From positions 40,859-104,858 of IMG/VR virus record IMGVR_UViG_3300037189_014399: 64,000 nucleotides of DNA. One strand, given 5' to 3'. Each line of letters starts with the position of its first letter. Position 1 is the stretch's first letter. Positions 21,511 to 32,527 of the stretch are shown here, one piece after another. The notes under the pieces are model-generated. The model searched no databases and was not told the DNA's origin. It was given only the letters and a program-made list of their open reading frames with translations. This stretch comes from a virus. The translations under genes were made by a program, and so were the position numbers.

Positions 21511-21716
21511 TATTTTTTACCTTTCTTATGGGGGTTCTTCTTATGCCATTCTTTAGTAGCTTTGACGCCTTGCTTTACTGTCTTAGCTCCGGCCTTCTCA
21601 GTAAGATTAATCTTATCCCACTTTGGGTCGTTCTTACCGGCGTGATCAACTATCACATCGCCTTTTTTATTCTTCTTGACCTCGTGGACCTTGCCACTAA
21701 CTTTTATTTTTGCCAT
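21510..21716 (-). CDS. Lys-rich small protein
   Basis: 68 aa, strongly basic, TAATG-coupled. Confidence 0.8.
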   Translation of the reverse strand: MAKIKVSGKVHEVKKNKKGDVIVDHAGKNDPKWDKINLTEKAGAKTVKQGVKATKEWHKKNPHKKGKK

Positions 21717-23044
21717 TATTGAGCCAAGTAACTTCCCGATAAGTTAAAGGTTGTAGAGGTAGCAAAGTTACCAAGAAGGTTTTTAGTCAATGGGTCAAGT
21801 ACTAGCTTGTTTCCAGGACCACCTGCGCTCTGCCCGTAGAGGGTAATAGTTGTAGAGCCAGCGGTTGTTGTGCCCACAATTGGGTAGATGGTTCCACCGA
21901 TATTGAGAGTGCCTGAGAGGCTTGATGGGCCATAAGCTGCAACTGGCAGTGTGAGGGTATAGGCACCTGTTCCAAAGTTAGAGACGTTGGTGCAAGCAAC
22001 TGCAATCTGGAATTGGATAATCTTGCCAGTTCTTGCGTAGTAGCTAGTAGTAGGTGTGCCACTAAAAATAAGACCAGTACCCGCCCATGTAGACGTGTAA
22101 GAGGTATTAGCTGGTGAGACGTAAGCTGTGGTCTGGCTAGTAGAGTCGTTATAGTTAACTGTAGTAACAGCTAGAGTAGGCAACTGAGCCTGAGCAATTC
22201 CGTCAATATTAAAAACACCGTTGTTAATGGTAATGCCGGCATTACTACCTAATGATTGATCTGTAATATATATGGTTCCGGGCCCGACGTGTATAGACTT
22301 CCAACGAAGAGCATCTGAACCTAAGTTGTAGGTATTATCTAGGGCAGGAATTACATCCGTAGAAATATTATTAAGGCTGGCTGCTTGAGCAAAGACAATG
22401 TTGTCCGTGCCAATCTTAATGCCGTAATCAACCATAGTTCCTGTCAAACTCTCAAAGAACGTTTTGTTTCCATTAAGAGTTCCATAAAGAACAAGTACTT
22501 GATCGCCTTGAGATACTTGACCTTGAACACTATTATCATAATCAGTAGCACGGGTAAGAATAGGTGTTAGACCAGCAACCATACGGGTTGCCACATAGAT
22601 ACCATTTTGTTTAGCATCTACTTGGTCTTTAATAAGAACACGGTCATTTGGAGCAATAGTGCGACTATCAAGTCCAATAACCCCCGGTGTAGTCGATGTA
22701 AAGTTTGCACCAACACCGGTTCCACCATCAGCGCCTGCGCTACCTGCGTGGTAAGTCCAAACACCGCTAAGAGGTGCAGTAGTGGCAGCAACAACCGCAG
22801 CGTGAATATTGGTTGTGCCTGCAGGACCTGTAGGTCCTGTTGCTCCTACTGCTCCCGTGGATCCAGTGGCACCAGCTGGTCCAGTTGGGCCCACAGCTCC
22901 TGTGGATCCAGTTGGGCCAGTTGCTCCCGTTGCTCCTGCACTTCCTGCAGCACCTGTAGGTCCAGTCGTTCCCGTGTCACCCTTTGCTCCAACCGGTCCT
23001 TGTGGACCAACTCCTCCGCTATTTGAATAATGAATGTTTGCCAT
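21716..23044 (-). CDS. collagen-like fibre protein
   Basis: N-terminal Gly-X-Y run; [21 protein letters not shown] module; beta-rich C-terminal tip. Confidence 0.82.
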
Positions 23045-23901: not shown

Positions 23902-23930
23902 ATTGTTCCTTATCTACCCTGACCTGTCAG
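23902..23930 (-). promoter_or_regulatory. candidate promoter CTGACA-17-AACAAT, leaderless start at 23895
   Basis: Exact 17-nt spacer; ATG 6 nt downstream with no SD. Confidence 0.45.
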
Positions 23931-24752
23931 GCCATGCAAGATCTCTGATCTAACTATGTCTTTGATTCCCAAAGCATTTTGATATGGGAACCTATTTCTA
24001 GCTATCTTCTTTGGTGTCTCTATTAGGGCGTCTGAGTACTCGGCTAGTACCTCTACTCCGTACTCCTTGTACAGGGTTAAGATCGTATCTAGATCAGTAT
24101 CAATACCAGAGCATACGTCGTAAGTAAGATTTGCTAGTCCATCTAGGACTATGGATAAAGCAAGCACATTTATGTTAGCCACATCCATAACGTGAGAGTA
24201 ATCTCTAGGGAATGTCTTTCTGTTCACTATAAAGGGTTTGCTGTCCCTTACACAGGATCTAATAACGTCAAATACATTCCCAACCTGGTATTGACTTGGA
24301 GGCTCTATTAAACCACCTACGTTAAAGTATCTAAGGATTATGTGATTAACTTTAGATTCTTTTAAGAGCTGTTCAAAAATAGACTTTGATCTTGAATAGG
24401 GATTTTCCCCATAGTAAACCGCAGCACTTGAAGCAAACACCATGGGGATATTCAACTGCTCACAGACCCTTAATAGGTTTAGACTAGACACTAGATTATT
24501 AAAATAATACTCAGTAGGATTATTCTTTGAGTCAGGTATGCTTTTAAGTGCAGCCAAATGCAACACCGCCTTGATGTTATTAGTCACTATAAGATTATAG
24601 AGATCTTTATAATCTATTAAGTCTGTAGGGTTATTAGAATGGATGTCTATAGGTAATGAGTTAGAAAGAAGACTTAAGGTAGCTCTTCCTATATACCCGT
24701 CTCCCCCAGTTATAAGAACCCTACTGTTGTTGCTTAAGGACTTCTGCTCCAT
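23910..24752 (-). CDS. galE: NAD-dependent NDP-sugar 4-epimerase (GalE-like)
   Basis: VLITGGDGYIG, HLAA, SSAAVY, YSRSK (YxxxK), LRYFNVGG. Confidence 0.88.
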   Translation of the reverse strand: MEQKSLSNNSRVLITGGDGYIGRATLSLLSNSLPIDIHSNNPTDLIDYKDLYNLIVTNNIKAVLHLAALKSIPDSKNNPTEYYFNNLVSSLNLLRVCEQLNIPMVFASSAAVYYGENPYSRSKSIFEQLLKESKVNHIILRYFNVGGLIEPPSQYQVGNVFDVIRSCVRDSKPFIVNRKTFPRDYSHVMDVANINVLALSIVLDGLANLTYDVCSGIDTDLDTILTLYKEYGVEVLAEYSDALIETPKKIARNRFPYQNALGIKDIVRSEILHGLTGQGR

Positions 24753-25638
24753 TAGACAGAATCCTTCCGTTTACAAAATCCAACCCACAGTAATCACCAT
24801 AGTCTTTTAGACTTCGTTGTGTGCCAAGGCGATATTCCCCAGTCAGGGCTTCTGTTAAAACAAGTTTTATCTCATCTATAGACACTTGGTTTAGAGACGC
24901 ACACAACTCTGGAAAATCTGGACACACCTGCCTACGTTTATTGTCCTTATCAGCTTCCCAATAAAGGTGGTACATAAACTGTCTGGTTGGAACCATTAAG
25001 GTATACCCCATAGTAAACGCACGAGCAGCCATAAAGATTTCTTCACCGTCAGCAAAGATAAGTTCATTAGGTTTCATAAACTCACCCTCTACAAATATGG
25101 ATCCACCAGAGACGCTAAGTGAGGTGTGTAAAAATTCCTTTGGGGCATAAGATCCTTGCATAGGTGTTCTGAACAACTTAAATCGTTCTGGATCTTTCCA
25201 GTAGAACTGAGTAACTACATCCTCAACTTGCCTTACTACCTCATTACCACCCTCATACCAGTATAGCTTTGGGTAGTTTGTTATAAGCGGTTTTTCTACA
25301 CCCTCTGACTTATAAAAGTCCATAAGGTTTATTAAATAACTGTCCCAGTTCCTATCAAACCTACTATGAGAATCTACCTGTAAATAGTAATCCTCACCAG
25401 AATAAAATTGATGGGCTATAGCTCTTCCTTTACCCATACCTAAATTATCTGGAGCCTTACTGTAAAATACTTTTACATTTGGTAGGTTAGGAACCTCTAT
25501 TGTGTTTTCTTCAAAGAAGATTGAGTGAACACCAAAGTTAATCGTGTTAATTCCAGAAGCTTTTTCTATAGCATCAAAAATTGTCTTACTTAATTCTTGA
25601 TCATGATAAGAAGTAATCTGTATGAAAATACTTTTCAT
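24721..25638 (-). CDS. GT60-like glycosyltransferase (Skp1-hydroxyproline GlcNAc-transferase family)
   Basis: IFIQITSYHD.EL..TI, GEDYYLQVDSHSRF...WD, GEE, RAFT.GY, YHLY motifs of the Gnt1/GlcNAc-T family. Confidence 0.82.
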   Translation of the reverse strand: MKSIFIQITSYHDQELSKTIFDAIEKASGINTINFGVHSIFFEENTIEVPNLPNVKVFYSKAPDNLGMGKGRAIAHQFYSGEDYYLQVDSHSRFDRNWDSYLINLMDFYKSEGVEKPLITNYPKLYWYEGGNEVVRQVEDVVTQFYWKDPERFKLFRTPMQGSYAPKEFLHTSLSVSGGSIFVEGEFMKPNELIFADGEEIFMAARAFTMGYTLMVPTRQFMYHLYWEADKDNKRRQVCPDFPELCASLNQVSIDEIKLVLTEALTGEYRLGTQRSLKDYGDYCGLDFVNGRILSNGAEVLKQQQ

Positions 25639-26609
25639 TAGTCACTCCATACTGCGTGTGAGCAAGTAGTGCATAGTGTTTTAAATGAATGTTCTATCAT
25701 CTCTATGCGCCGATTGCTTTCCCAAATCTCCTTTATAGAAGAGTCGTTTACGTTTCCAAAAACAGTTTCAAAGTCATAGTCATTACAGCAGATAAACACA
25801 TCACCATTAGCGTTTACATGTAACCAGGTTTTGGTTCTATCTCCCATGTTAGTACAGCCAACAACCTTTGTTCCTTTTTTATTGTACCTTTCAATTGCTG
25901 GCATATTTGTCATTACTTTTGCTTTGTCTAGGTACCCGGCACGATCAACTAACCCAATATTTGAAAACACATTAATGGTAGGAAAGATTCTTTTAAAATC
26001 TCTAAGGGCATTTGAAAGATCTCCAGTCTCAGGAGATAGATCTAAGACAGGCATATTTTCTAGGGGTTGCATCCATCCCCCATTTACAGGTAAAGACCTT
26101 TCATCAATTCCGTTTACTTGAATTGATAGCATATGGGCAGGAAGTTGAGACACCGCATAATTTAAATTATCCGTTACCCGGTTATGAATCTTTGGGTTCT
26201 TTCCAGTCATCCTTGACCATACCTCTGGATCTGCAGAGGGAATATTAAAGTTAATTAGATCGACAACATCCTGATACTCTTTTATAAGATCAGTCTTCTC
26301 CGGTGTTAGGGGAATGCCATTTGTTAAAACCATAGTTCTAAGAGATAGTTCACGAAGTAGGTCCAGCATCCCATGAAAGTCTTTGTATAAAAGAACTTCG
26401 TTATAGTGCGCTGTATATACAAACGTAAACTGAGGGGAAACAAAATCTCCCATTCCCTCTTTAAGCTGGGTAAGGATACTTCTTACTGTCTCTAGTGGCA
26501 TGTTCTTTCTTCCAACCTCAGGGTTGGGAGAGTATGCCACAGGACAAAACCAACAACCTGAATTACACAGGCCATTTGGATCTAGTTGAAGTAACTGAAT
26601 CTGTGACAT
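25638..26609 (-). CDS. radical SAM protein with SPASM/twitch domain
   Basis: CNSGCWFC (CxxxCxxC), LTNG, C-terminal GC...NGDVFICC..GN..IW..CTTC; likely start ATG 26609. Confidence 0.9.
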   Translation of the reverse strand: MSQIQLLQLDPNGLCNSGCWFCPVAYSPNPEVGRKNMPLETVRSILTQLKEGMGDFVSPQFTFVYTAHYNEVLLYKDFHGMLDLLRELSLRTMVLTNGIPLTPEKTDLIKEYQDVVDLINFNIPSADPEVWSRMTGKNPKIHNRVTDNLNYAVSQLPAHMLSIQVNGIDERSLPVNGGWMQPLENMPVLDLSPETGDLSNALRDFKRIFPTINVFSNIGLVDRAGYLDKAKVMTNMPAIERYNKKGTKVVGCTNMGDRTKTWLHVNANGDVFICCNDYDFETVFGNVNDSSIKEIWESNRRIEMIEHSFKTLCTTCSHAVWSD

Positions 26610-26613
26610 TAAG

Positions 26614-27222
26614 TTAATTCCACCACGCAACTACGGCATATCGAAGTCCTGAGATTACAGGGTGTACGCTATGGTTATAGATGTAGTTAGATGGAAACAT
26701 AATCATTTGATTAGCTTTTGGTTTAATCTTTAAACCAAATCTAGGGAATTCAATTTCCCCACCTTCATAGTCTTCATTAAGATAGAAGCTCATAGATACT
26801 GTTCTTGGAAAGGCCCTAGAATCATCAAAGTGATTTATAAAGTGATTGTCTTTTCCATACTTAAGTATCTGCCAACCTTCTGATACGTACCATTGTCCTG
26901 CAGCATGACTGTTCTTATAGTGAAGGATGGCTTCATTAAGTTCCTCATTTAAAAGATCATGAAGAGCAAGCATGGCTCCACCACTTGTGTTTCTAAGCTC
27001 TGGATTGGCATCGTATGCCGGCAATGACATTACTTTACAATCACGAATGCTCTTTACAGCTTTTGGTGAGTCTTCCTCCTGCCCGCTGCTTTGGTTAGCT
27101 TCAGCCCAAGCTAGGTTATTGATCTCTACTAGCCCTTCAAGGTCTGAAATAAAACCAGCGGGATCAGACATAACATTGGTGTAACTAACAATACCTGGTG
27201 CTAGTACTTCTACCTCAAACAT
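26614..27222 (-). CDS. 2OG-Fe(II) oxygenase, prolyl 4-hydroxylase-like
   Basis: QILKY...HFD (HxD), YLNEDYEGGEIEF, HSVHPV, RY; P4Hc-type fold. Confidence 0.88.
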   Translation of the reverse strand: MFEVEVLAPGIVSYTNVMSDPAGFISDLEGLVEINNLAWAEANQSSGQEEDSPKAVKSIRDCKVMSLPAYDANPELRNTSGGAMLALHDLLNEELNEAILHYKNSHAAGQWYVSEGWQILKYGKDNHFINHFDDSRAFPRTVSMSFYLNEDYEGGEIEFPRFGLKIKPKANQMIMFPSNYIYNHSVHPVISGLRYAVVAWWN

Positions 27223-27454
27223 CTACTTTGCCCCACTTTCCAATTGGACATTCTGCTCCTGGAAGAGTTGTTTTAATCTTCATAAAGCATCCGCACTTCT
27301 TGCATTGTTTTGTAAGTTTAATAAGTTCTGGACATGCTTGACACATACCCCATCGCTCCTCATACACAGCATCGCTTACTCGTTCCGCTGTTGTAATAAG
27401 GTCCCAAGGTCTAGTTTCACCAAGGTTCTTCTTATAATCTTCCCATCTAGACAC
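27215..27454 (-). CDS. small Cys-rich metal-binding protein
   Basis: R...CQACP...CKKCGCFM..K......CPIGKW; six Cys. Confidence 0.75.
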   Translation of the reverse strand: MSRWEDYKKNLGETRPWDLITTAERVSDAVYEERWGMCQACPELIKLTKQCKKCGCFMKIKTTLPGAECPIGKWGKVDV

Positions 27455-27827
27455 TAGCTATTACCTCCTTGAATTCGCCGTTTACATAGCTCCAACCAGG
27501 GACTATAGCTGAAGAGTAACCAGTATCGATAGAAACGTCAATTACTGTAGGCTCTGAAGAAAGAATTGCCCACATTTTTTCATCACATTGGATGGTTTCA
27601 ATCTCTTGTTTATCCTTTATAACATCCACATAAAAAAGAGGAGGTGTTACAGGAAGTTCCTTGAATCGATCTGCGGTAAGCAAAAGGTTGGCTGCATCTA
27701 CCTCAAGTGCTAGGACCTCGGCAACCTCATTGCCTACAATAAAGGCTACAGCTCTTGATGGTATTCCTTGAAGTTTCTTTTCTACTGCGGAATCGCCGGA
27801 TCGTATATGGTCTTTTAATATAAACAT
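27447..27827 (-). CDS. hypothetical protein (possible fibre chaperone)
   Basis: Follows the fibre-like gene; ends PGWSYVNGEF like tail-fibre assembly proteins. Confidence 0.55.
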   Translation of the reverse strand: MFILKDHIRSGDSAVEKKLQGIPSRAVAFIVGNEVAEVLALEVDAANLLLTADRFKELPVTPPLFYVDVIKDKQEIETIQCDEKMWAILSSEPTVIDVSIDTGYSSAIVPGWSYVNGEFKEVIASV

Positions 27828-27852
27828 TTAATGCCTTTCGTCTAGTAGAAGT

Positions 27853-30279
27853 TTAGCACGCTCCACCAGAACCATATGAGCCCTGACAACAGCTTGTACA
27901 GGTACATGGGTTAGATGGGTTTGCATAGTCTGCAGAGGTACATCTATAGTTGCCTGAGGATGCAGGAGTAGAGGTTGGTGCCGGAGTGCTTGTTGCTGGA
28001 GCATAATCTCCCTGGCAGATATTAGGGCAAGAGCCAGGAGTAATACACCAAGTACCGTTTCCATAAGTTCCGCAAGCCCCACCGTAGCTAACGCATGTTG
28101 AGCATGAGGTGGCTGTAGGGGCAGGAGTAGATGTTGCAGTAGGAGTAGGAGTTGGATTACATGCTGGGCAGTTAGTGTAATTATAATCCGCACAACCTGA
28201 AGCTGTTCTACAAATAATATAAGTATTACCGCAAGCATCTCCGCAAGACATTGTTTCGTAAGCTGGGTGTGATCCCCATCCTACGCAAGCACTGCAATTT
28301 GTGGTAGAAGTAGGTGTAGGAGTAGAAGTAGAAGTCGCTGTGGGTGTGGGGGTAGGTGTAGGCGTTGATGATAAACAATACTGGAACTGTCCAGAAGTAC
28401 ATACATATGTTAACCCTAAGTCACTACATGTATTAGTTGTTGATCGTGTAGAGGTGTAAGATCTTCCATCATTTGGAGGACATGCAGAAGTAGGAGTAGG
28501 TGTAGAAGTAGTTGTAGTAGTTGGTGTAGGTGTAGGTGTAGATTGTGGTCCGCAGTTTGCAACAGGACCTGAAGTATTAAACCCGAATACATAACCAGAG
28601 CCGCCACAGTCAGCGTTAGCTACTTGTCGTCCAGTTGTATTGTAGCTGTTATAAGCCCCGTCACTATATTGACCTGGGTTACCACAGCAGTAATAGTAAG
28701 TAGTTGTAGGAGCAGGAGTAGATGTAGCTGTAGGAGTAGGAGTAGGTGTAGAAGTAGTTGTAGAAGTAGCCGTTGGTGTAGGTGTTGGAGTAGAGCCTGA
28801 ACAGTTCTTACTCTGACATGATGGGTATCCAGATGTACTGTATGAAAGCGATGAGTAGCTACCGCAGTTTCCTACAAACGTTGCTACCATCTCGTTATAG
28901 GTGTTTCCTGAGAACTGGGCGCAGTATCCATCGCAACAAGCAGTTCCGTAATAGGTTGTTCCACCAGAAGTTGGAGTAGGTGTAGCAGTAGCAGTAGCCG
29001 TTGGAGTAGGAGTAGGGGTAGAAGTAGTACATGTGTACGGGTTACTGTATCCCTGAGTACACGTAGTTGAGTAACCAGTTCCTGATCCAGATTGGTTTGC
29101 AGAATATGGACCAGATAATGAACAACCAACAGGTGTTGACTGAACATAAGTAATGCAGTAGTACCCATAGGTTGAAGTAGCTGTAGGAGTAGGAGTAGGT
29201 GTAGGAGTTACCGCTCCTGGACAGTTACCTGGGTAACCTGAAGTTAATACGTTATAGCCTAATGAAGGACAGTAGGTGTAAGCCGAAGTAGCTGTAGGAG
29301 TAGGAGTAGGGGTAGGCGTTGAAGTACAAGTACCGTTAACTTGATACTGTGCGTAATAACTTGGACTATATGTACCGCCACTAAATGTAGTTTGACCACA
29401 TACCCAAGAGCTAATAGATGTTGATCCTGAAATACTGCTGTAAGCTTCTGCGCAGTATGCACTTGCGCTGCTGTAACCAAACAAAGTAACATCAATGCCG
29501 TCGTATCCATTTGACCCTGAAGACGTACAATACCCATAGGATACGTATATAGATCCTGTTGTAGGTGTGGGTGTGGGGGTAGGTGTTGGCGTAGATGTGC
29601 CTGATGATGCGGTGGTAAAAGATGTAGGTGCGCTACCGCATGCTGTTCCATTTAAGTAGCCAATAAGCGTTGCAGTGTAATTAGTTGCTGCACTTAATCC
29701 TGAAACAAGGATAGGCAAAGAAGAGCCAGTAGCAACGATACTTCCACCAATACTTACAGCAACTGAAGTATAAGCCTGAGTATTTCCAGTTATATAGGCA
29801 GCGTTTGTCGTCCAAGCCTGGCCTGCTCCGGCACCGTAAGCAGTTGCAGAGCTAATACATGAACCACCAGTTGTAGGTGTGGGGGTAGGAGTAGATGTAG
29901 CAGTTGGAGTAGGTGTAGGAGTAGGGGTAACTGTCGGAGCAATATAATTATAATAAGTAAGATCAACTACCTGTGCAGATAGGTAGTATCCAGAGGCTAC
30001 GCTCTGAGTAATGATCTGTTGATTATTTCCTGAAGTTGCTCCGGATGTAACTGCTGTAGAAGTCCCTACAGTATTTCCTGAAGAGGTAATTGCTGTAGTT
30101 GCAGCAGATAAAGTAGATCCGACTACGTTAGGTACTGTAACCGGAGGAACAAGAACTTGTCTCCATACAGTGTTATTTTTTGCATAGCCGTAGGTAACGC
30201 TACGCCAAGTACCATTTACTTTGACGTATGCCCTGTAGAGTGTTCTCCAGGTACCATTGATGCGTACATTACCGGCCAT
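27853..30279 (-). CDS. Thr-Pro repeat / Cys-rich mucin-like virion appendage protein with PASTA-like domain
   Basis: N-terminal (V.GTWR) repeats, VPNVVG PASTA-like domain, about ten (TP)n linkers separating small Cys-rich modules. Confidence 0.8.
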   Translation of the reverse strand: MAGNVRINGTWRTLYRAYVKVNGTWRSVTYGYAKNNTVWRQVLVPPVTVPNVVGSTLSAATTAITSSGNTVGTSTAVTSGATSGNNQQIITQSVASGYYLSAQVVDLTYYNYIAPTVTPTPTPTPTATSTPTPTPTTGGSCISSATAYGAGAGQAWTTNAAYITGNTQAYTSVAVSIGGSIVATGSSLPILVSGLSAATNYTATLIGYLNGTACGSAPTSFTTASSGTSTPTPTPTPTPTTGSIYVSYGYCTSSGSNGYDGIDVTLFGYSSASAYCAEAYSSISGSTSISSWVCGQTTFSGGTYSPSYYAQYQVNGTCTSTPTPTPTPTATSAYTYCPSLGYNVLTSGYPGNCPGAVTPTPTPTPTATSTYGYYCITYVQSTPVGCSLSGPYSANQSGSGTGYSTTCTQGYSNPYTCTTSTPTPTPTATATATPTPTSGGTTYYGTACCDGYCAQFSGNTYNEMVATFVGNCGSYSSLSYSTSGYPSCQSKNCSGSTPTPTPTATSTTTSTPTPTPTATSTPAPTTTYYYCCGNPGQYSDGAYNSYNTTGRQVANADCGGSGYVFGFNTSGPVANCGPQSTPTPTPTTTTTSTPTPTSACPPNDGRSYTSTRSTTNTCSDLGLTYVCTSGQFQYCLSSTPTPTPTPTATSTSTPTPTSTTNCSACVGWGSHPAYETMSCGDACGNTYIICRTASGCADYNYTNCPACNPTPTPTATSTPAPTATSCSTCVSYGGACGTYGNGTWCITPGSCPNICQGDYAPATSTPAPTSTPASSGNYRCTSADYANPSNPCTCTSCCQGSYGSGGAC
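27960..29940. repeat. degenerate 6-nt microsatellite blocks encoding (Thr-Pro)n
   Basis: Recurrent GTAGGA/GTAGGT/GTTGGA units on the + strand. Confidence 0.85.
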
Positions 30280-31107: not shown

Positions 31108-31449
31108 CTATGAAAGTTCTGAACCGAATGCTTGGAAAGCTAAACCTGTACTTGATGAATAAACTCCAACAACGTCATTTGTTGCAAGGGTAAGACCTAC
31201 GGTATAGGTAGTAGTTGTATTTGCTGGAATGGTTGTTCCTGATGCAAAGTACTGTTTTGTTGACAGAGTAGCTCCACCCTGACGAATAGCAATGCTGTAA
31301 GTAGCAGCTGAAGAGGTTGTGTTGCAAACTGAGATTGTGGAAAGTACAGCGCCTGTCTTTGGAGAAGCTACAGTGTAGAGGGCCACCTCTGTAGAGGCTG
31401 ATCCACTAGTAGGGTTAGCCTGCCCCAAGATCTTATAAGCTGTTGCCAT
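31108..31449 (-). CDS. small virion structural protein
   Basis: MATAYKILGQ...VCN...IPANTT...FGSE; resembles 38029..38331. Confidence 0.65.
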   Translation of the reverse strand: MATAYKILGQANPTSGSASTEVALYTVASPKTGAVLSTISVCNTTSSAATYSIAIRQGGATLSTKQYFASGTTIPANTTTTYTVGLTLATNDVVGVYSSSTGLAFQAFGSELS

Positions 31450-32527
31450 GTTTCTCCCCTAAATAAAAAGCTAGATTTGATTTTAGACGTTGATCGTTTG
31501 GACTTAATTGTAACGCTTCAGACCCATATTTAATGGCTTTCTCCAAATGATCTGCTTTTTCTTCTCTAGTTTCTACAGACTTATACAAGTTAAAATGAGA
31601 AATTGCAGCATAGTCGTGGGGGAGACTGCCCCAGGCAAACTCCTCACATAGATACTCCAAAGGCTTTTCTGTAATCTTTAGGGCCATTTCCGCTACCTGG
31701 TAGCAGGCAGTGCTCCATCCGGTCTCATAGTAATAACCAGCAAGCTCTACTAAAGCCTCTCTTCTATCGGGGGCTTCGTCGTACGCCTTGCGTAACCACT
31801 CATGACGCTCTTCACCTTCAGATAGCTTTGCTATATATCTCATTGAGGCTGCACGTTCTGGTTTCCATAGTGCTCCTGGCAGAGATAGATGACGTAGGAA
31901 CTCAGCCTTAGCTTCCTCAGCTTTGCCATAGAAGTAAAGTTCTCTGGCATAGTAGAAGGCGTTGCGATCATCGTTTGGATCTTCAACTACAGATTGAGCT
32001 AACAGGGGAAGGTATTGCCCACGGGACTTAGAGTTATCTGGGTAGTGGTGGATCTCAAGATCACACCATTCCTGGGTCTCAGGTATGCGGTCAGATACAA
32101 GGACTTCGTGTACCGGATGCTTCCACCTATAGCCCTTACGAGCATGGATCTTATCTCCGCCGTATTGAAGGCCTGGAGTGCCGTCTTCATTCCAAGACCA
32201 AGTGTACTTGTATCGAACTCTAGTTGCCTCGGTGGATTCCAATTGGGTACGCCAACCAGGTAAGAAAACCTCATCCATATCTAAGGCTACACACATGTCA
32301 ATGTCTGCTGGCAAAGCAGCCAGAGATGCATTACGTGCGTCATCAAAACGCCAAGGATTGATTGTAATAGAGATTGTATTTATGCCAAGCTTATTGGCAA
32401 GCTCTACGGTTCCATCTGTGGAGCCAGTATCGGCTATAAGGAGGTAGTCTGCCTCTTTAGCAGATTCAAACCATCGCTCTACAAACTGTGATTCGTTTTT
32501 AGCAATGGTATATACGGCTATTTTCAT
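31433..32527 (-). CDS. GT2 glycosyltransferase with C-terminal TPR repeats
   Basis: IAVYTIAKNE, DTGSTDGT, RFDDARN, LDMDE (DxD), VHE, followed by TPR helices. Confidence 0.9.
   Translation of the reverse strand: MKIAVYTIAKNESQFVERWFESAKEADYLLIADTGSTDGTVELANKLGINTISITINPWRFDDARNASLAALPADIDMCVALDMDEVFLPGWRTQLESTEATRVRYKYTWSWNEDGTPGLQYGGDKIHARKGYRWKHPVHEVLVSDRIPETQEWCDLEIHHYPDNSKSRGQYLPLLAQSVVEDPNDDRNAFYYARELYFYGKAEEAKAEFLRHLSLPGALWKPERAASMRYIAKLSEGEERHEWLRKAYDEAPDRREALVELAGYYYETGWSTACYQVAEMALKITEKPLEYLCEEFAWGSLPHDYAAISHFNLYKSVETREEKADHLEKAIKYGSEALQLSPNDQRLKSNLAFYLGEKHGNSL

What the first reader, a model, noticed from the sequence alone, without database searches (positions are those of the whole stretch)
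23910..30279. Candidate phage hydroxyproline O-glycosylation system encoded next to its likely (Thr-Pro)n substrate
Seen: one co-oriented, mostly overlapping run. It reads 808-aa (Thr-Pro)n/Cys-rich protein, chaperone-like ORF, Cys-rich ORF, prolyl-4-hydroxylase-type 2OG-Fe(II) oxygenase, radical SAM/SPASM, GT60-like transferase (YYLQVDSHSRF), GalE-like epimerase. It sits between collagen fibre genes and looks more AT-rich than its flanks by eye. Established: the pair prolyl hydroxylase + GT60 is the Dictyostelium/Toxoplasma Skp1 pathway (PhyA then Gnt1), which adds GlcNAc to hydroxyproline. Alternating TP/SP/AP repeats are the hydroxylation and glycosylation modules of plant/algal arabinogalactan-type proteins. 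Glycosylated virions are known in some mycobacteriophages, but I know of no hydroxyproline-linked case. Inference: the phage hydroxylates Pro in its TP linkers and adds HexNAc (epimerase supplying the donor, radical SAM tailoring it), building a stiff mucin-like appendage whose maturation would depend on O2.
Basis: partly seen in the sequence, partly recalled or inferred. Interest (0 to 1): 0.9.

Follow-up and report, generated by a model that had tools for sequence, protein, structure and literature searches.

The report
Phage fibre-protein hydroxylation and O-glycosylation cassette
An uncultured myovirus carries, directly after a bead-on-a-string fibre gene with Thr-Pro linkers, a conserved enzyme set (mucin-type GT60 sugar transferase, prolyl-hydroxylase-like oxygenase, radical SAM enzyme, sugar epimerase) that most likely decorates those linkers with sugars; relatives of this cassette are common in uncultured phages, but which residue carries the sugar (Thr or hydroxyproline) is not settled.

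Summary
Seven co-oriented, tightly packed minus-strand genes encode an 808-aa protein (nine TP-rich linker runs, Cys-even modules), a small ORF, DUF6171, a P4H-type 2OG oxygenase, a radical SAM enzyme, a GT60 transferase and a GalE-like SDR. GC falls to 0.36-0.39 over the enzyme genes.

New here: the GT60 family occurs in >558 viral contigs. In 40 of 47 distinct evaluable loci it lies 1-6 genes downstream of a protein with Thr-rich linkers (background 9/711 ORFs). The GT60 model matches mucin-type polypeptide GalNAc-transferases (Z 18.5-21.9). The oxygenase model matches protein prolyl hydroxylases.

The orthologous P4H occurs only in the one phage clade whose linkers are TP-rich. Other clades have poly-Thr linkers and no cassette P4H, so Thr is the family-wide candidate acceptor.

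P4H-GT60 adjacency nevertheless recurs independently in SAR86 and two other bacterial MAG loci, and one Rickettsiales MAG ORF fuses the two domains. Hydroxyproline-linked sugar therefore stays open.

The scan's first readers noted a poly-Thr variant on other DNA (e1-5894824).

Verdict: a real, widespread, uncharacterised virion-protein modification cassette.

The parts
27853..30279 (-). 808-aa predicted substrate. It has an N-terminal NGTWR-repeat region, a borderline PASTA-like stretch and an FN3-like module. About eight small Cys-even modules then follow. Nine (TP)n-type linker runs separate the modules (95 Thr and 49 Pro in linker runs).
   Evidence: The module at residues 142-221 is homologous to the poly-Thr-clade protein of L024 (39% id, E=1e-6). 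A Cys module is shared with the L008 protein (62% id).
27447..27827 (-). 126-aa small ORF of no known family. It may be a fibre assembly/chaperone protein.
   Evidence: No Pfam, PHROG or NCBIfam hit. An ORF of 70-150 aa sits in the same position in most related loci. The nearest named atlas clusters are tail-fibre assembly proteins at 0.75-0.80, which is a lead only.
27215..27454 (-). DUF6171 protein, 79 aa, with six invariant Cys (probably zinc-binding). It travels with the GT60 and is a candidate accessory subunit.
   Evidence: PF19668 3e-07 and phrog_13558 1e-14. It is found in 43 of 69 distinct GT60 loci, with or without rSAM or 2OG. C38, C41, C51, C54, C56 and C69 are invariant. Complex prediction with GT60 gave weak support only.
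26614..27222 (-). P4H-type 2OG-Fe(II) oxygenase, 202 aa. It is the only PF13640 gene in the 104.9-kb genome.
   Evidence: PF13640 1.8e-15. H131, D133, H184 and R194 are invariant. AF2 model pLDDT 84.6. Foldseek and VIA top matches are prolyl hydroxylases, Z 15.8-18.0. Single copy in the genome.
25638..26630 (-). Radical SAM enzyme with a partial SPASM/twitch C-terminus, 330 aa (the likely start is about 7 codons in). It is BtrN-like.
   Evidence: Pfam Radical_SAM + SPASM. It has CX3CX2C at C22/C26/C29, but only five conserved C-terminal Cys. The only significant PDB sequence match is BtrN, E=3.4e-8. The family is mostly viral.
24721..25638 (-). GT60-family (PF11397) GT-A glycosyltransferase, 305 aa, single domain. 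D89-x-H91 and H224 are invariant.
   Evidence: PF11397 3.4e-30. Invariant residues from the 23-sequence alignment. AF2 model pLDDT 92. The top 29 PDB matches are all GT27 polypeptide GalNAc-transferases, Z 18.5-21.9 and rmsd ~3.1 A over ~260 residues. Generic GT-A folds reach only Z<=17.5.
23910..24752 (-). Short GalE-like extended-SDR nucleotide-sugar epimerase, 280 aa.
   Evidence: PF01370 7e-25. TIGR01179 galE scores 94.5 bits, below its equivalog cut-off of 262. The best PDB matches are UDP-glucose 4-epimerases, E=1e-16. The GGDGYIG and YSRSK motifs are present. It is present in 20 of 69 distinct related loci.
31433..32527 (-). GT2 + TPR glycosyltransferase four genes upstream. It is a possible further member (glycan extension, or glycosylation of the collagen-like fibres) and the only other GT in the genome.
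   Evidence: phrog_13126 3e-112. PF00535 9.5e-07 plus a weak TPR hit. Only one PF00535 hit in the genome. Homologues lie in the same module in 11 related loci. Its role was not tested.

Best explanation
This is a dedicated post-translational modification cassette for a virion fibre protein. The 808-aa gene product has small disulfide-type modules strung on Thr/Pro linkers. It is made together with the enzymes encoded immediately downstream. The GT60 transferase, probably working with the small DUF6171 protein, adds a HexNAc-type sugar to the linker regions in a mucin-like fashion. The GalE-like epimerase supplies the 4-epimer of the UDP-sugar donor. The BtrN-like radical SAM enzyme probably oxidises or tailors the sugar. 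In this clade a P4H-type oxygenase additionally hydroxylates the linker prolines. The family-wide common acceptor is Thr. In this clade hydroxyproline may be a second acceptor or even the main one. Shown here: gene content, families, folds and synteny. Inferred: substrate identity, donor, acceptor residue and every catalytic step.
For: (1) Synteny. GT60 relatives occur in >558 viral contigs. In 40 of 47 distinct loci with >=3 kb upstream, a same-strand protein with T/P/A/S linker runs lies 1-6 genes upstream. The background is 9 of 711 ORFs >=100 aa. After single-linkage clustering of GT60 at 70% identity the count is 14 of 17 evaluable clusters, and at 60% it is 9 of 12.
(2) The association recurs outside this phage family. 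In Pseudoduganella/Duganella a (TPAPTE)n protein is directly followed by GT60. In L140, TP-linker/Cys-module proteins flank GT60. In L090 a TadE-like protein with a TP/AP/SP tail is followed by GT60.
(3) The GT60 model (pLDDT 92) matches GT27 mucin-type polypeptide GalNAc-transferase catalytic domains. They score Z 18.5-21.9 over ~260 residues, above generic GT-A folds. Characterised GT60 enzymes make GlcNAc-alpha-O-Thr on mucin-like domains (PMC9472816, PMC8724618).
(4) The P4H-type fold and an intact HxD...H...R set are present. The orthologous 2OG occurs only in the one GT60 clade (SH-aLRT 99) whose linkers have P/(T+P) 0.30-0.56. Elsewhere the range is 0-0.38 with median 0.15.
(5) The window and L024 substrate proteins share a homologous module just before the first linker. 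The substrate gene is therefore partly orthologous across the TP and poly-Thr clades.
(6) DUF6171 accompanies GT60 in 43 of 69 distinct loci, regardless of the other enzymes. Complex prediction gave weak support: ipSAE 0.57, best control 0.00. That mark was reached by 58 of 80 solved complexes and 2 of 110 mismatched pairs. At 0.60 or under, it was reached by only 7 of those 80 solved complexes and by both mismatches that passed. The runs agree in >=81% of contacts and the partner pLDDT is >=74.
(7) In relatives the rSAM slot is occupied by other sugar enzymes (GT2 + SDR in L051; HAD-nucleotidyltransferase in L021). The rSAM's only significant PDB sequence match is the sugar-type dehydrogenase BtrN.
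Against: There is no biochemical, proteomic or expression evidence. Most phage loci belong to related myovirus-like structural modules, so much of the synteny could be inherited together rather than selected. One subclade (L019/L022/L023) has the cassette with extra hydroxylases but no linker protein within 8 kb upstream. The 2OG/Pro-rich correlation within phages is a single phylogenetic event. A complete poly-Thr-clade genome carries eight PF13640 genes elsewhere, so the lack of a cassette P4H does not exclude hydroxylation there. The acceptor residue, donor sugar and rSAM substrate are all inferred. The DUF6171-GT60 complex prediction is only a weak pass.
Confidence: 0.5

Rival explanations
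1. P4H first converts linker Pro to 4-hydroxyproline, and GT60 then transfers HexNAc to the Hyp hydroxyl, as in the Skp1 PhyA-Gnt1 pathway. Thr is not the main acceptor in this clade.
For: P4H and GT60 lie in one tightly packed operon. P4H-GT60 adjacency recurs in three separate GT60 lineages: a conserved divergent pair in 15 SAR86 loci; convergent pairs in L090 and L119; and one uninterrupted ORF in L137 carrying GT60, GT60, a redoxin domain and a 2OG domain. hhalign matches that C-terminus to the phage 2OG profile at 97% probability, E=6e-11. Dictyostelium PhyA is among the best structural matches of the oxygenase, Z 16.7. The only phage clade with the orthologous P4H is the one with Pro-rich linkers.
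Against: Orthologous GT60s (about 40-50% identical) in most phage clades sit next to Pro-poor poly-Thr linkers with no cassette P4H. Three partial genomes of such phages show no PF13640 gene at all. TP-type linkers next to GT60 occur without a P4H on the same contig or nearby in Oxalobacteraceae, L140 and L097. The TP clade is nested inside Thr-rich clades, so Thr is the parsimonious ancestral acceptor. TP motifs are themselves good mucin-type Thr acceptors (own knowledge of GT27 specificity).
Confidence: 0.3
2. The enzymes do not act on the adjacent 808-aa protein. They modify other targets, for example Thr at the Y position of the collagen-like GPT fibres, capsid or tail proteins, or host envelope glycans. 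The cassette sits after the linker-protein gene only because that is a common insertion site for accessory genes.
For: Collagen-like genes are frequent in the same modules (23 phmmer hits over 80 loci). The window's collagens have Thr as the commonest Y residue (79 of 175 triplets, and 13 of 23). A second GT (GT2+TPR) lies nearby. GC is lower over the enzyme genes, which suggests a mobile cassette. The L019-type loci lack a linker protein.
Against: Adjacency to Thr-rich-linker proteins holds across very different protein sizes (69-1587 aa) and in unrelated bacterial contexts. Collagen genes occur in both P4H-plus and P4H-minus clades. Their Pro is at X, almost never at Y (1 of 175; 0 of 23), so they are not canonical X-Pro-Gly P4H substrates. 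The best fold matches are polypeptide transferases, not LPS or DNA glycosyltransferases.
Confidence: 0.12
3. The radical SAM enzyme and DUF6171 form a RiPP-like or redox pair. They would crosslink the Cys-rich modules through thioethers, or assist their folding, rather than take part in glycosylation.
For: The substrate is Cys-rich with even Cys counts per module. SPASM/twitch enzymes include thioether-forming peptide maturases, and weak NCBIfam hits point to such maturases. DUF6171 has six invariant Cys.
Against: DUF6171 occurs with GT60 in many loci that lack the rSAM. The rSAM is absent from clades that still have Cys-rich modules. Only five C-terminal Cys are conserved, so the SPASM motif is incomplete. 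The only significant solved relative is the dehydrogenase BtrN, and anSME scores only E~0.09. In relatives the rSAM slot is filled by sugar enzymes. Even Cys counts are explained by ordinary disulfides.
Confidence: 0.1

Closest known systems
Skp1 hydroxylation/glycosylation pathway of Dictyostelium and Toxoplasma (PhyA prolyl 4-hydroxylase, then the GT60 enzyme Gnt1)
   Same: The same two enzyme families are encoded together. Both are cytoplasmic and soluble, and one step depends on O2. PhyA is among the best fold matches of the phage oxygenase.
   Different: There is no Skp1 and no single target proline. The predicted target is a repetitive linker with ~49 Pro and ~95 Thr. The Skp1 pathway's downstream glycosyltransferases (PgtA, AgtA/Gat1) were not searched for; the only other GT2-family (PF00535) gene in the genome is the GT2+TPR gene. 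A radical SAM enzyme, DUF6171 and an epimerase are added. In most relatives the GT60 works without a cassette P4H.
Mucin-type polypeptide HexNAc transferases: protist GT60 pp-alpha-GlcNAcTs (T. cruzi TcOGNT1, Dictyostelium) and metazoan GT27 pp-GalNAc-Ts
   Same: The Pfam/CAZy family is the same (GT60). The fold is closest to GT27 catalytic domains, Z up to 21.9. A DxH motif plus a distal His is invariant. The predicted acceptor is a dense Thr/Pro array. As in GT60, there is no ricin lectin domain (PMC8724618).
   Different: The enzyme is phage-encoded and cytoplasmic rather than Golgi-bound. It is paired with a small Cys-rich DUF6171 protein. Its substrate gene is encoded alongside it. The donor and the anomeric outcome are unknown.
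Mycobacteriophage virion glycosylation (Freeman et al. 2023, cited in PMC12619734)
   Same: Phage-encoded glycosyltransferases next to structural genes O-glycosylate virion proteins.
   Different: The GT family differs, and no hydroxylase or radical SAM enzyme is reported there (own knowledge). The targets there are the C-termini of capsid and tail-tube subunits, not linkers of a modular fibre protein.
Giant-virus hydroxylase systems: PBCV-1 prolyl 4-hydroxylase (vCPH) and mimivirus L230 lysyl hydroxylase/glycosyltransferase
   Same: A virus-encoded 2OG hydroxylase acts on the virus's own Pro-rich or collagen-like proteins. Both appear among the fold matches: 5c5t at Z 15.8 and 6ax6 at Z 15.5. 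In mimivirus, hydroxylation is coupled to glycosylation (own knowledge).
   Different: Those are viruses of eukaryotes, with different glycosyltransferase families and different repeat types (PAPK-type or collagen Gly-X-Y).
O-glycosylated Pro-Thr box linkers of bacterial cellulases (for example Cellulomonas fimi) and plant/algal Hyp-rich glycoproteins
   Same: Alternating Pro/Thr (or Ser-Pro) linkers form extended, protease-resistant, glycosylated spacers between folded modules (own knowledge).
   Different: The enzymology is different (mannosyltransferases; GT31/GT95 families in plants). No homology was tested here. The resemblance is compositional.

Membership tests
CAZy GT60 / Pfam PF11397 (GlcNAc transferase) | Sequence matches the family HMM above its curated cut-off | tested here: met
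   PF11397 scores 106.2 bits (cut-off 21), E=3.4e-30. The best-scoring stretch covers profile positions 104-350 of 352. The six-frame genome search also matched positions 1-42 of the profile.
CAZy GT60 / Pfam PF11397 (GlcNAc transferase) | GT-A fold related to GT27 polypeptide GalNAc-transferases, with a DxH metal motif and no lectin domain | tested here: met
   The model has pLDDT 92 and is a single 305-aa domain. GT27 catalytic domains give Z 18.5-21.9. D89, H91 and H224 are invariant in 23 sequences. Assigning them as Mn ligands is my inference from GT27.
CAZy GT60 / Pfam PF11397 (GlcNAc transferase) | Transfers alpha-GlcNAc from UDP-GlcNAc to a protein hydroxyl (Thr/Ser, or Hyp in the Gnt1 subtype) | not testable with these tools
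   Only context is available: adjacency to Thr-rich linkers family-wide, and to a P4H in this clade.
Skp1 PhyA-Gnt1 pathway | P4H and GT60 act in sequence on one Pro of Skp1 | tested here: inconclusive
   There is no PF01466 match in the genome, but the control rang nowhere either, so the search is uninformative. The predicted substrate is a repetitive linker, not Skp1. A pathway analogy is possible. Membership is not claimed.
Protein prolyl 4-hydroxylases (2OG-FeII_Oxy_3, P4Hc-like) | DSBH fold with the HxD...H iron triad and a basic residue that binds 2OG | tested here: met
   PF13640 1.8e-15. H131, D133, H184 and R194 are invariant in 14 orthologues.
Protein prolyl 4-hydroxylases (2OG-FeII_Oxy_3, P4Hc-like) | Closest structural relatives are prolyl hydroxylases rather than other 2OG oxygenases | tested here: met
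   Foldseek top hits are 3gze (Cr-P4H with (SP)5), PHD2, 6t8m, 5c5t and 3itq. VIA gives P. putida P4H Z 18.0, Trichoplax PHD 17.5, DdPhyA 16.7 and Cr-P4H 16.3, against AlkB 14.2. The gradient is smooth, so Pro rather than Lys or another residue is not proven.
Protein prolyl 4-hydroxylases (2OG-FeII_Oxy_3, P4Hc-like) | Hydroxylates peptidyl proline | not testable with these tools
   The only evidence is correlative: the orthologue is present solely in the clade with Pro-rich linkers.
Radical SAM / SPASM | CX3CX2C cluster motif | tested here: met
   C22, C26 and C29 are conserved in 33 sequences. PF04055 2.8e-12.
Radical SAM / SPASM | Full seven-Cys SPASM motif for two auxiliary clusters | tested here: inconclusive
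   PF13186 matches at 2.4e-12. However, only C259, C281, C282, C320 and C323 are conserved, and the protein ends 7 residues after CxxC. This looks twitch-like or like a partial SPASM.
UDP-hexose 4-epimerase (GalE) | Rossmann GxxGxxG and catalytic YxxxK; equivalog-level similarity | tested here: inconclusive
   The GGDGYIG and YSRSK motifs are present, and the best PDB matches are GalE at 1e-16. But TIGR01179 scores 94.5 against a cut-off of 262.3, and the protein is ~55 residues shorter than GalE.
Plant/algal Hyp-rich glycoprotein (AGP/extensin) glycomodules | Non-contiguous X-Hyp repeats glycosylated by GT31/GT95-type enzymes | not tested
   Only the repeat composition resembles these. No such GT families were searched for. 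The GT present here is GT60.

The most novel reading that the evidence does not exclude
Phages and several bacterial lineages (SAR86; the L090/L119/L137 group) possess a prokaryotic hydroxyproline O-glycosylation pathway. A P4H makes Hyp in (Thr/Ala/Ser-Pro)n linkers and a GT60 attaches HexNAc to it. A radical SAM dehydrogenase then further oxidises the sugar. To my knowledge this would be the first Hyp-linked glycan outside eukaryotes. It would make virion-fibre maturation depend on O2.
Probability: 0.3. Interest if true: 0.88.

Novelty: new variant of a known kind. Interest (0 to 1): 0.74.

Why it matters
Virion glycosylation in phages is so far documented mainly in mycobacteriophages. This is a different cassette, built on a mucin-type transferase. 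It occurs in hundreds of uncultured viral contigs, and its predicted substrate is encoded right next to it. That makes it directly testable with a few recombinant proteins.

It would show that aquatic phages build mucin-like, protease-resistant glycosylated stalks on their fibres. That has consequences for adsorption, stability and particle stickiness.

It also gives a concrete role to some of the abundant but cryptic phage P4H and galE 'auxiliary metabolic genes', whose use by viruses is described as unknown (PMC9301287).

The repeated P4H-GT60 pairing and the fusion in bacteria also raise the possibility of Hyp-linked glycans in prokaryotes.

Tried and rejected
Neighbourhoods therefore came from the search for related loci plus my own ORF calling.
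- Megablast of the region against known phages found no match. tblastn of GT60 found only four Xanthomonas/Stenotrophomonas jumbo phages at ~25% identity.
- PDB sequence and profile searches with GT60 found nothing. No solved GT60 was available, so a Gnt1-type versus pp-GlcNAcT-type assignment could not be made.
- My first, greedy ORF caller missed the P4H gene in L090. I corrected this with all-ORF profile searches.
- The second iteration of that profile was contaminated by GT60-containing fusion ORFs. I discarded it and used only round-1 hits and Pfam-verified hits.
- The search for homologous proteins with lengths 'longer' returned one GT60-DUF7164 fusion and no P4H fusion. The tool itself calls this weak evidence.
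- Sequencing runs: only the probable source sample holds the DNA, and no RNA holder is listed.
- Promoter and terminator scans were no different from shuffles. The only strong terminator-like site is at 21045-21026.
- The Skp1 search was uninformative.
- Literature searches for GT60 with phage, DUF6171, virion glycosylation, phage P4H/hydroxyproline, and Thr-rich O-glycosylated fibres found no description of this cassette.
- I considered and rejected the collagen-like fibres as canonical P4H substrates, because Pro is at X rather than Y.

Full report
WHAT IS THERE.
The window is the last 64 kb of a complete 104,858-bp viral record with direct terminal repeats. It encodes, on the minus strand, the structural module of a myovirus. 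In order this comprises terminase, portal, major head protein, a 924-aa collagen-like fibre, an Mtd_N-domain protein and large virion proteins. Then come a GT2+TPR glycosyltransferase, the region in question, a 442-aa collagen-like protein, the tail sheath and the baseplate.

They are packed with a 25-nt gap or 1-32 nt overlaps. The family calls are confirmed:
- an SDR epimerase;
- PF11397 (CAZy GT60), E=3.4e-30;
- radical SAM with a SPASM-type C-terminus;
- a 2OG-FeII_Oxy_3 oxygenase;
- a DUF6171 protein.

The 126-aa ORF has no family. The 808-aa protein has nine TP-rich linker runs and 46 Cys. Every module carries an even number of Cys: 0,2,4,2,4,6,4,4,8,12. GC drops to 0.36-0.39 over the enzyme genes, against about 0.45 in the flanks and in the 808-aa gene.

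WHAT THE ENZYMES LOOK LIKE.
GT60. The alignment-based AlphaFold model has pLDDT 92. Its 29 best PDB matches are all catalytic domains of mucin-type polypeptide GalNAc-transferases (GT27), with Z 18.5-21.9 and rmsd about 3.1 A over about 260 of 305 residues. Generic GT-A enzymes follow at Z 17.5 or lower. D89-x-H91 and H224 are invariant in 23 homologues. No GT60 structure was found by sequence in the PDB. Published work states that GT60 holds both the Skp1 Hyp-GlcNAc transferase type and polypeptide alpha-GlcNAc transferases. The latter make GlcNAc-alpha-O-Thr on mucin-like domains and are related to GT27 (PMC9472816, PMC8724618).

Oxygenase. Its model (pLDDT 84.6) is closest to protein prolyl hydroxylases. 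These include Chlamydomonas P4H with (Ser-Pro)5, PHD2, Dictyostelium PhyA, PBCV-1 vCPH and B. anthracis and P. putida P4H. They score Z 15.8-18.0, against 14.2 for AlkB. H131, D133, H184 and R194 are invariant. It is the only PF13640 gene in this genome.

Radical SAM enzyme. It has CX3CX2C but only five conserved C-terminal Cys. Its only significant solved relative by sequence is the dehydrogenase BtrN, E=3.4e-8. The anaerobic sulfatase maturase reaches only E=0.09. The family is mainly viral.

Epimerase. It is GalE-like (PDB 1e-16; GGDGYIG and YSRSK motifs), but it is short and scores below the galE equivalog cut-off.

COMPARATIVE GENOMICS: THE MAIN NEW EVIDENCE.
The GT60 has more than 240 close metagenomic homologues. 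More than 558 viral contigs encode a relative, and I fetched 80 of them. I called ORFs in these loci and labelled them with the window's proteins.

The recurrent order is: [protein with Thr-rich linkers and Cys-rich modules], [small ORF of 70-150 aa], DUF6171, (2OG), (rSAM), GT60, (SDR).

Of 47 distinct loci with at least 3 kb upstream, 40 have such a linker protein 1-6 genes upstream on the same strand. Only 9 of 711 other ORFs of at least 100 aa have such linkers. One further locus has it nine genes upstream. After clustering GT60 at 70% identity the count is 14 of 17 evaluable clusters, and at 60% it is 9 of 12. The linker proteins range from 69 to 1587 aa.

The window protein shares a module just before its first linker with the poly-Thr-clade protein of L024 (39% identity, E=1e-6). 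It also shares a Cys module with L008.

Relatives swap accessory genes in and out. These include a JmjC-like hydroxylase, extra 2OG genes, a HAD-nucleotidyltransferase fusion, a GT2, other SDRs and DUF7164. This is the behaviour of a glycan-building island.

THR OR HYP?
On a GT60 tree the orthologous 2OG (phmmer E<1e-30) is confined to one clade of 15 rows (SH-aLRT 99). That is the only clade with Pro-rich linkers: P/(T+P) is 0.30-0.56 with median 0.52. Elsewhere it is 0-0.38 with median 0.15. This fits prolyl hydroxylation of the linkers, but it is a single evolutionary event.

The other clades have TTTTAAP-type linkers and no cassette P4H. Three partial genomes of that kind have no PF13640 gene at all. 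One complete genome has eight, elsewhere in the genome.

TP-type repeats next to GT60 also occur with no P4H on the same contig or nearby. Examples are Pseudoduganella/Duganella, where a 1398-aa (TPAPTE)n protein is followed by a GT60-methyltransferase fusion, and the marine contig L140. These facts make Thr the common denominator.

On the other side, P4H-GT60 adjacency recurs in separate GT60 lineages:
- a conserved divergent pair in 15 SAR86 loci;
- convergent pairs with GT60-redoxin fusions in L090 and L119, where L090 lies directly after a TadE-like protein with a TP/AP/SP tail;
- one uninterrupted 1058-codon frame in a Rickettsiales MAG (L137), carrying two GT60 domains, a redoxin domain and a C-terminal 2OG domain (hhalign 97% probability, E=6e-11).

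Such pairing and fusion argue that the two enzymes work on the same substrate. They keep the Hyp-linked reading alive.

OTHER PARTS.
DUF6171 has six invariant Cys and ends in ...CPIGKW. It accompanies GT60 in 43 of 69 distinct loci, whether or not rSAM or 2OG is present.

A complex prediction of GT60 with DUF6171 gave weak support: ipSAE 0.57 against a best control of 0.00. That mark was reached by 58 of 80 solved complexes and 2 of 110 mismatched pairs. At 0.60 or under, it was reached by only 7 of those 80 solved complexes and by both mismatches that passed. The runs agree in at least 81% of contacts, and the partner's pLDDT is at least 74.

The 126-aa ORF is only weakly like tail-fibre assembly proteins.

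The collagen-like fibres have Pro at X and Thr at Y, with Pro at Y in 1 of 175 and 0 of 23 triplets. They are therefore not canonical P4H substrates, though their Thr could be glycosylated.

VERDICT.
The best reading is a virion fibre-protein modification cassette. In it a mucin-type GT60, probably with DUF6171, glycosylates the Thr/Pro linkers of the adjacent protein. In this clade a P4H also hydroxylates the linker prolines. An epimerase and a BtrN-like radical SAM enzyme shape the sugar. Confidence is about 0.5. The strict Hyp-linked version is at about 0.3.

No paper describing this cassette was found. Phage P4H genes are described as cryptic in function (PMC9301287). No expression data exist. 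The scan's first readers had noted the poly-Thr variant on another genome (e1-5894824), and my analysis of L006/L024 agrees with that note.

Noticed in passing
L095:7326-9035 (and 14 other SAR86 loci, e.g. L091, L098, L099, L108-L110, L115, L116, L118): SAR86 genomes conserve a divergently transcribed pair: a 206-aa P4H-type 2OG oxygenase and a 346-aa GT60-like transferase. No Thr/Pro-rich protein is nearby. This may be a bacterial counterpart of the Skp1 PhyA-Gnt1 pair with an unknown substrate.
   Followed up: partly
L137:4396-7572 (+), Rickettsiales MAG contig: One uninterrupted 1058-codon frame carries two GT60 domains (PF11397, 472 bits), an AhpC/TSA-redoxin domain and a C-terminal 2OG-oxygenase domain. 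hhalign to the phage P4H profile gives 97% probability. This is a Rosetta-stone fusion of GT60 and a P4H-like enzyme.
   Followed up: partly
L090:3425-6607 and L119:5079-7357: A GT60-AhpC/TSA (redoxin) fusion gene has a convergent P4H-type gene directly after it. In L090 it is preceded by a TadE-like pilus-assembly protein with a (TP/AP/SP)n tail. This suggests glycosylation or hydroxylation of a Tad pilus component.
   Followed up: partly
L121:3727-9545 (Pseudoduganella sp.), also L100, L104, L138, L146: A 1398-aa protein made largely of (TPAPTE)n repeats is immediately followed by a GT60-methyltransferase fusion (535 aa). No P4H is nearby.
   Followed up: partly
window:31433-32527 (-): A GT2+TPR glycosyltransferase (phrog_13126, 3e-112) lies four genes upstream of the 808-aa gene. 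It is the only other GT in the genome. Homologues lie in the same module in 11 related loci.
   Followed up: partly
window:42627-45401 and 21716-23044 (-): The collagen-like fibres have Gly-Pro-Thr-type triplets, with Pro at X in 71 of 175 and Thr at Y in 79 of 175. This is the pattern known from glycosylated BclA-type collagens (own knowledge), so they could be further glycosylation targets.
   Followed up: partly
window:42085-42642 (-): A 185-aa protein has an Mtd_N domain (major tropism determinant N-terminal domain, 1.9e-14) followed by a short collagen-like stretch, directly after the 924-aa collagen fibre gene. I did not check for a diversity-generating retroelement.
   Followed up: no
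L019:3714-8909, L022, L023: A subclade of the cassette carries three 2OG oxygenase genes, a JmjC-like hydroxylase, rSAM and GT60. It has no Thr/Pro-linker protein within 8 kb upstream, so its substrate is unknown.
   Followed up: partly
L040:6991-8004 and protein P0127: DUF7164 (PF23741) is encoded directly upstream of GT60 in L040. In a 590-aa metagenomic protein it is fused to GT60. It is another unstudied partner of this transferase.
   Followed up: no
L042 record (G002), about 81.8-88.4 kb: A complete 118-kb phage of the poly-Thr clade carries an island of six PF13640 2OG oxygenase genes about 10 kb from its GT60 cassette, plus two more elsewhere.
   Followed up: no
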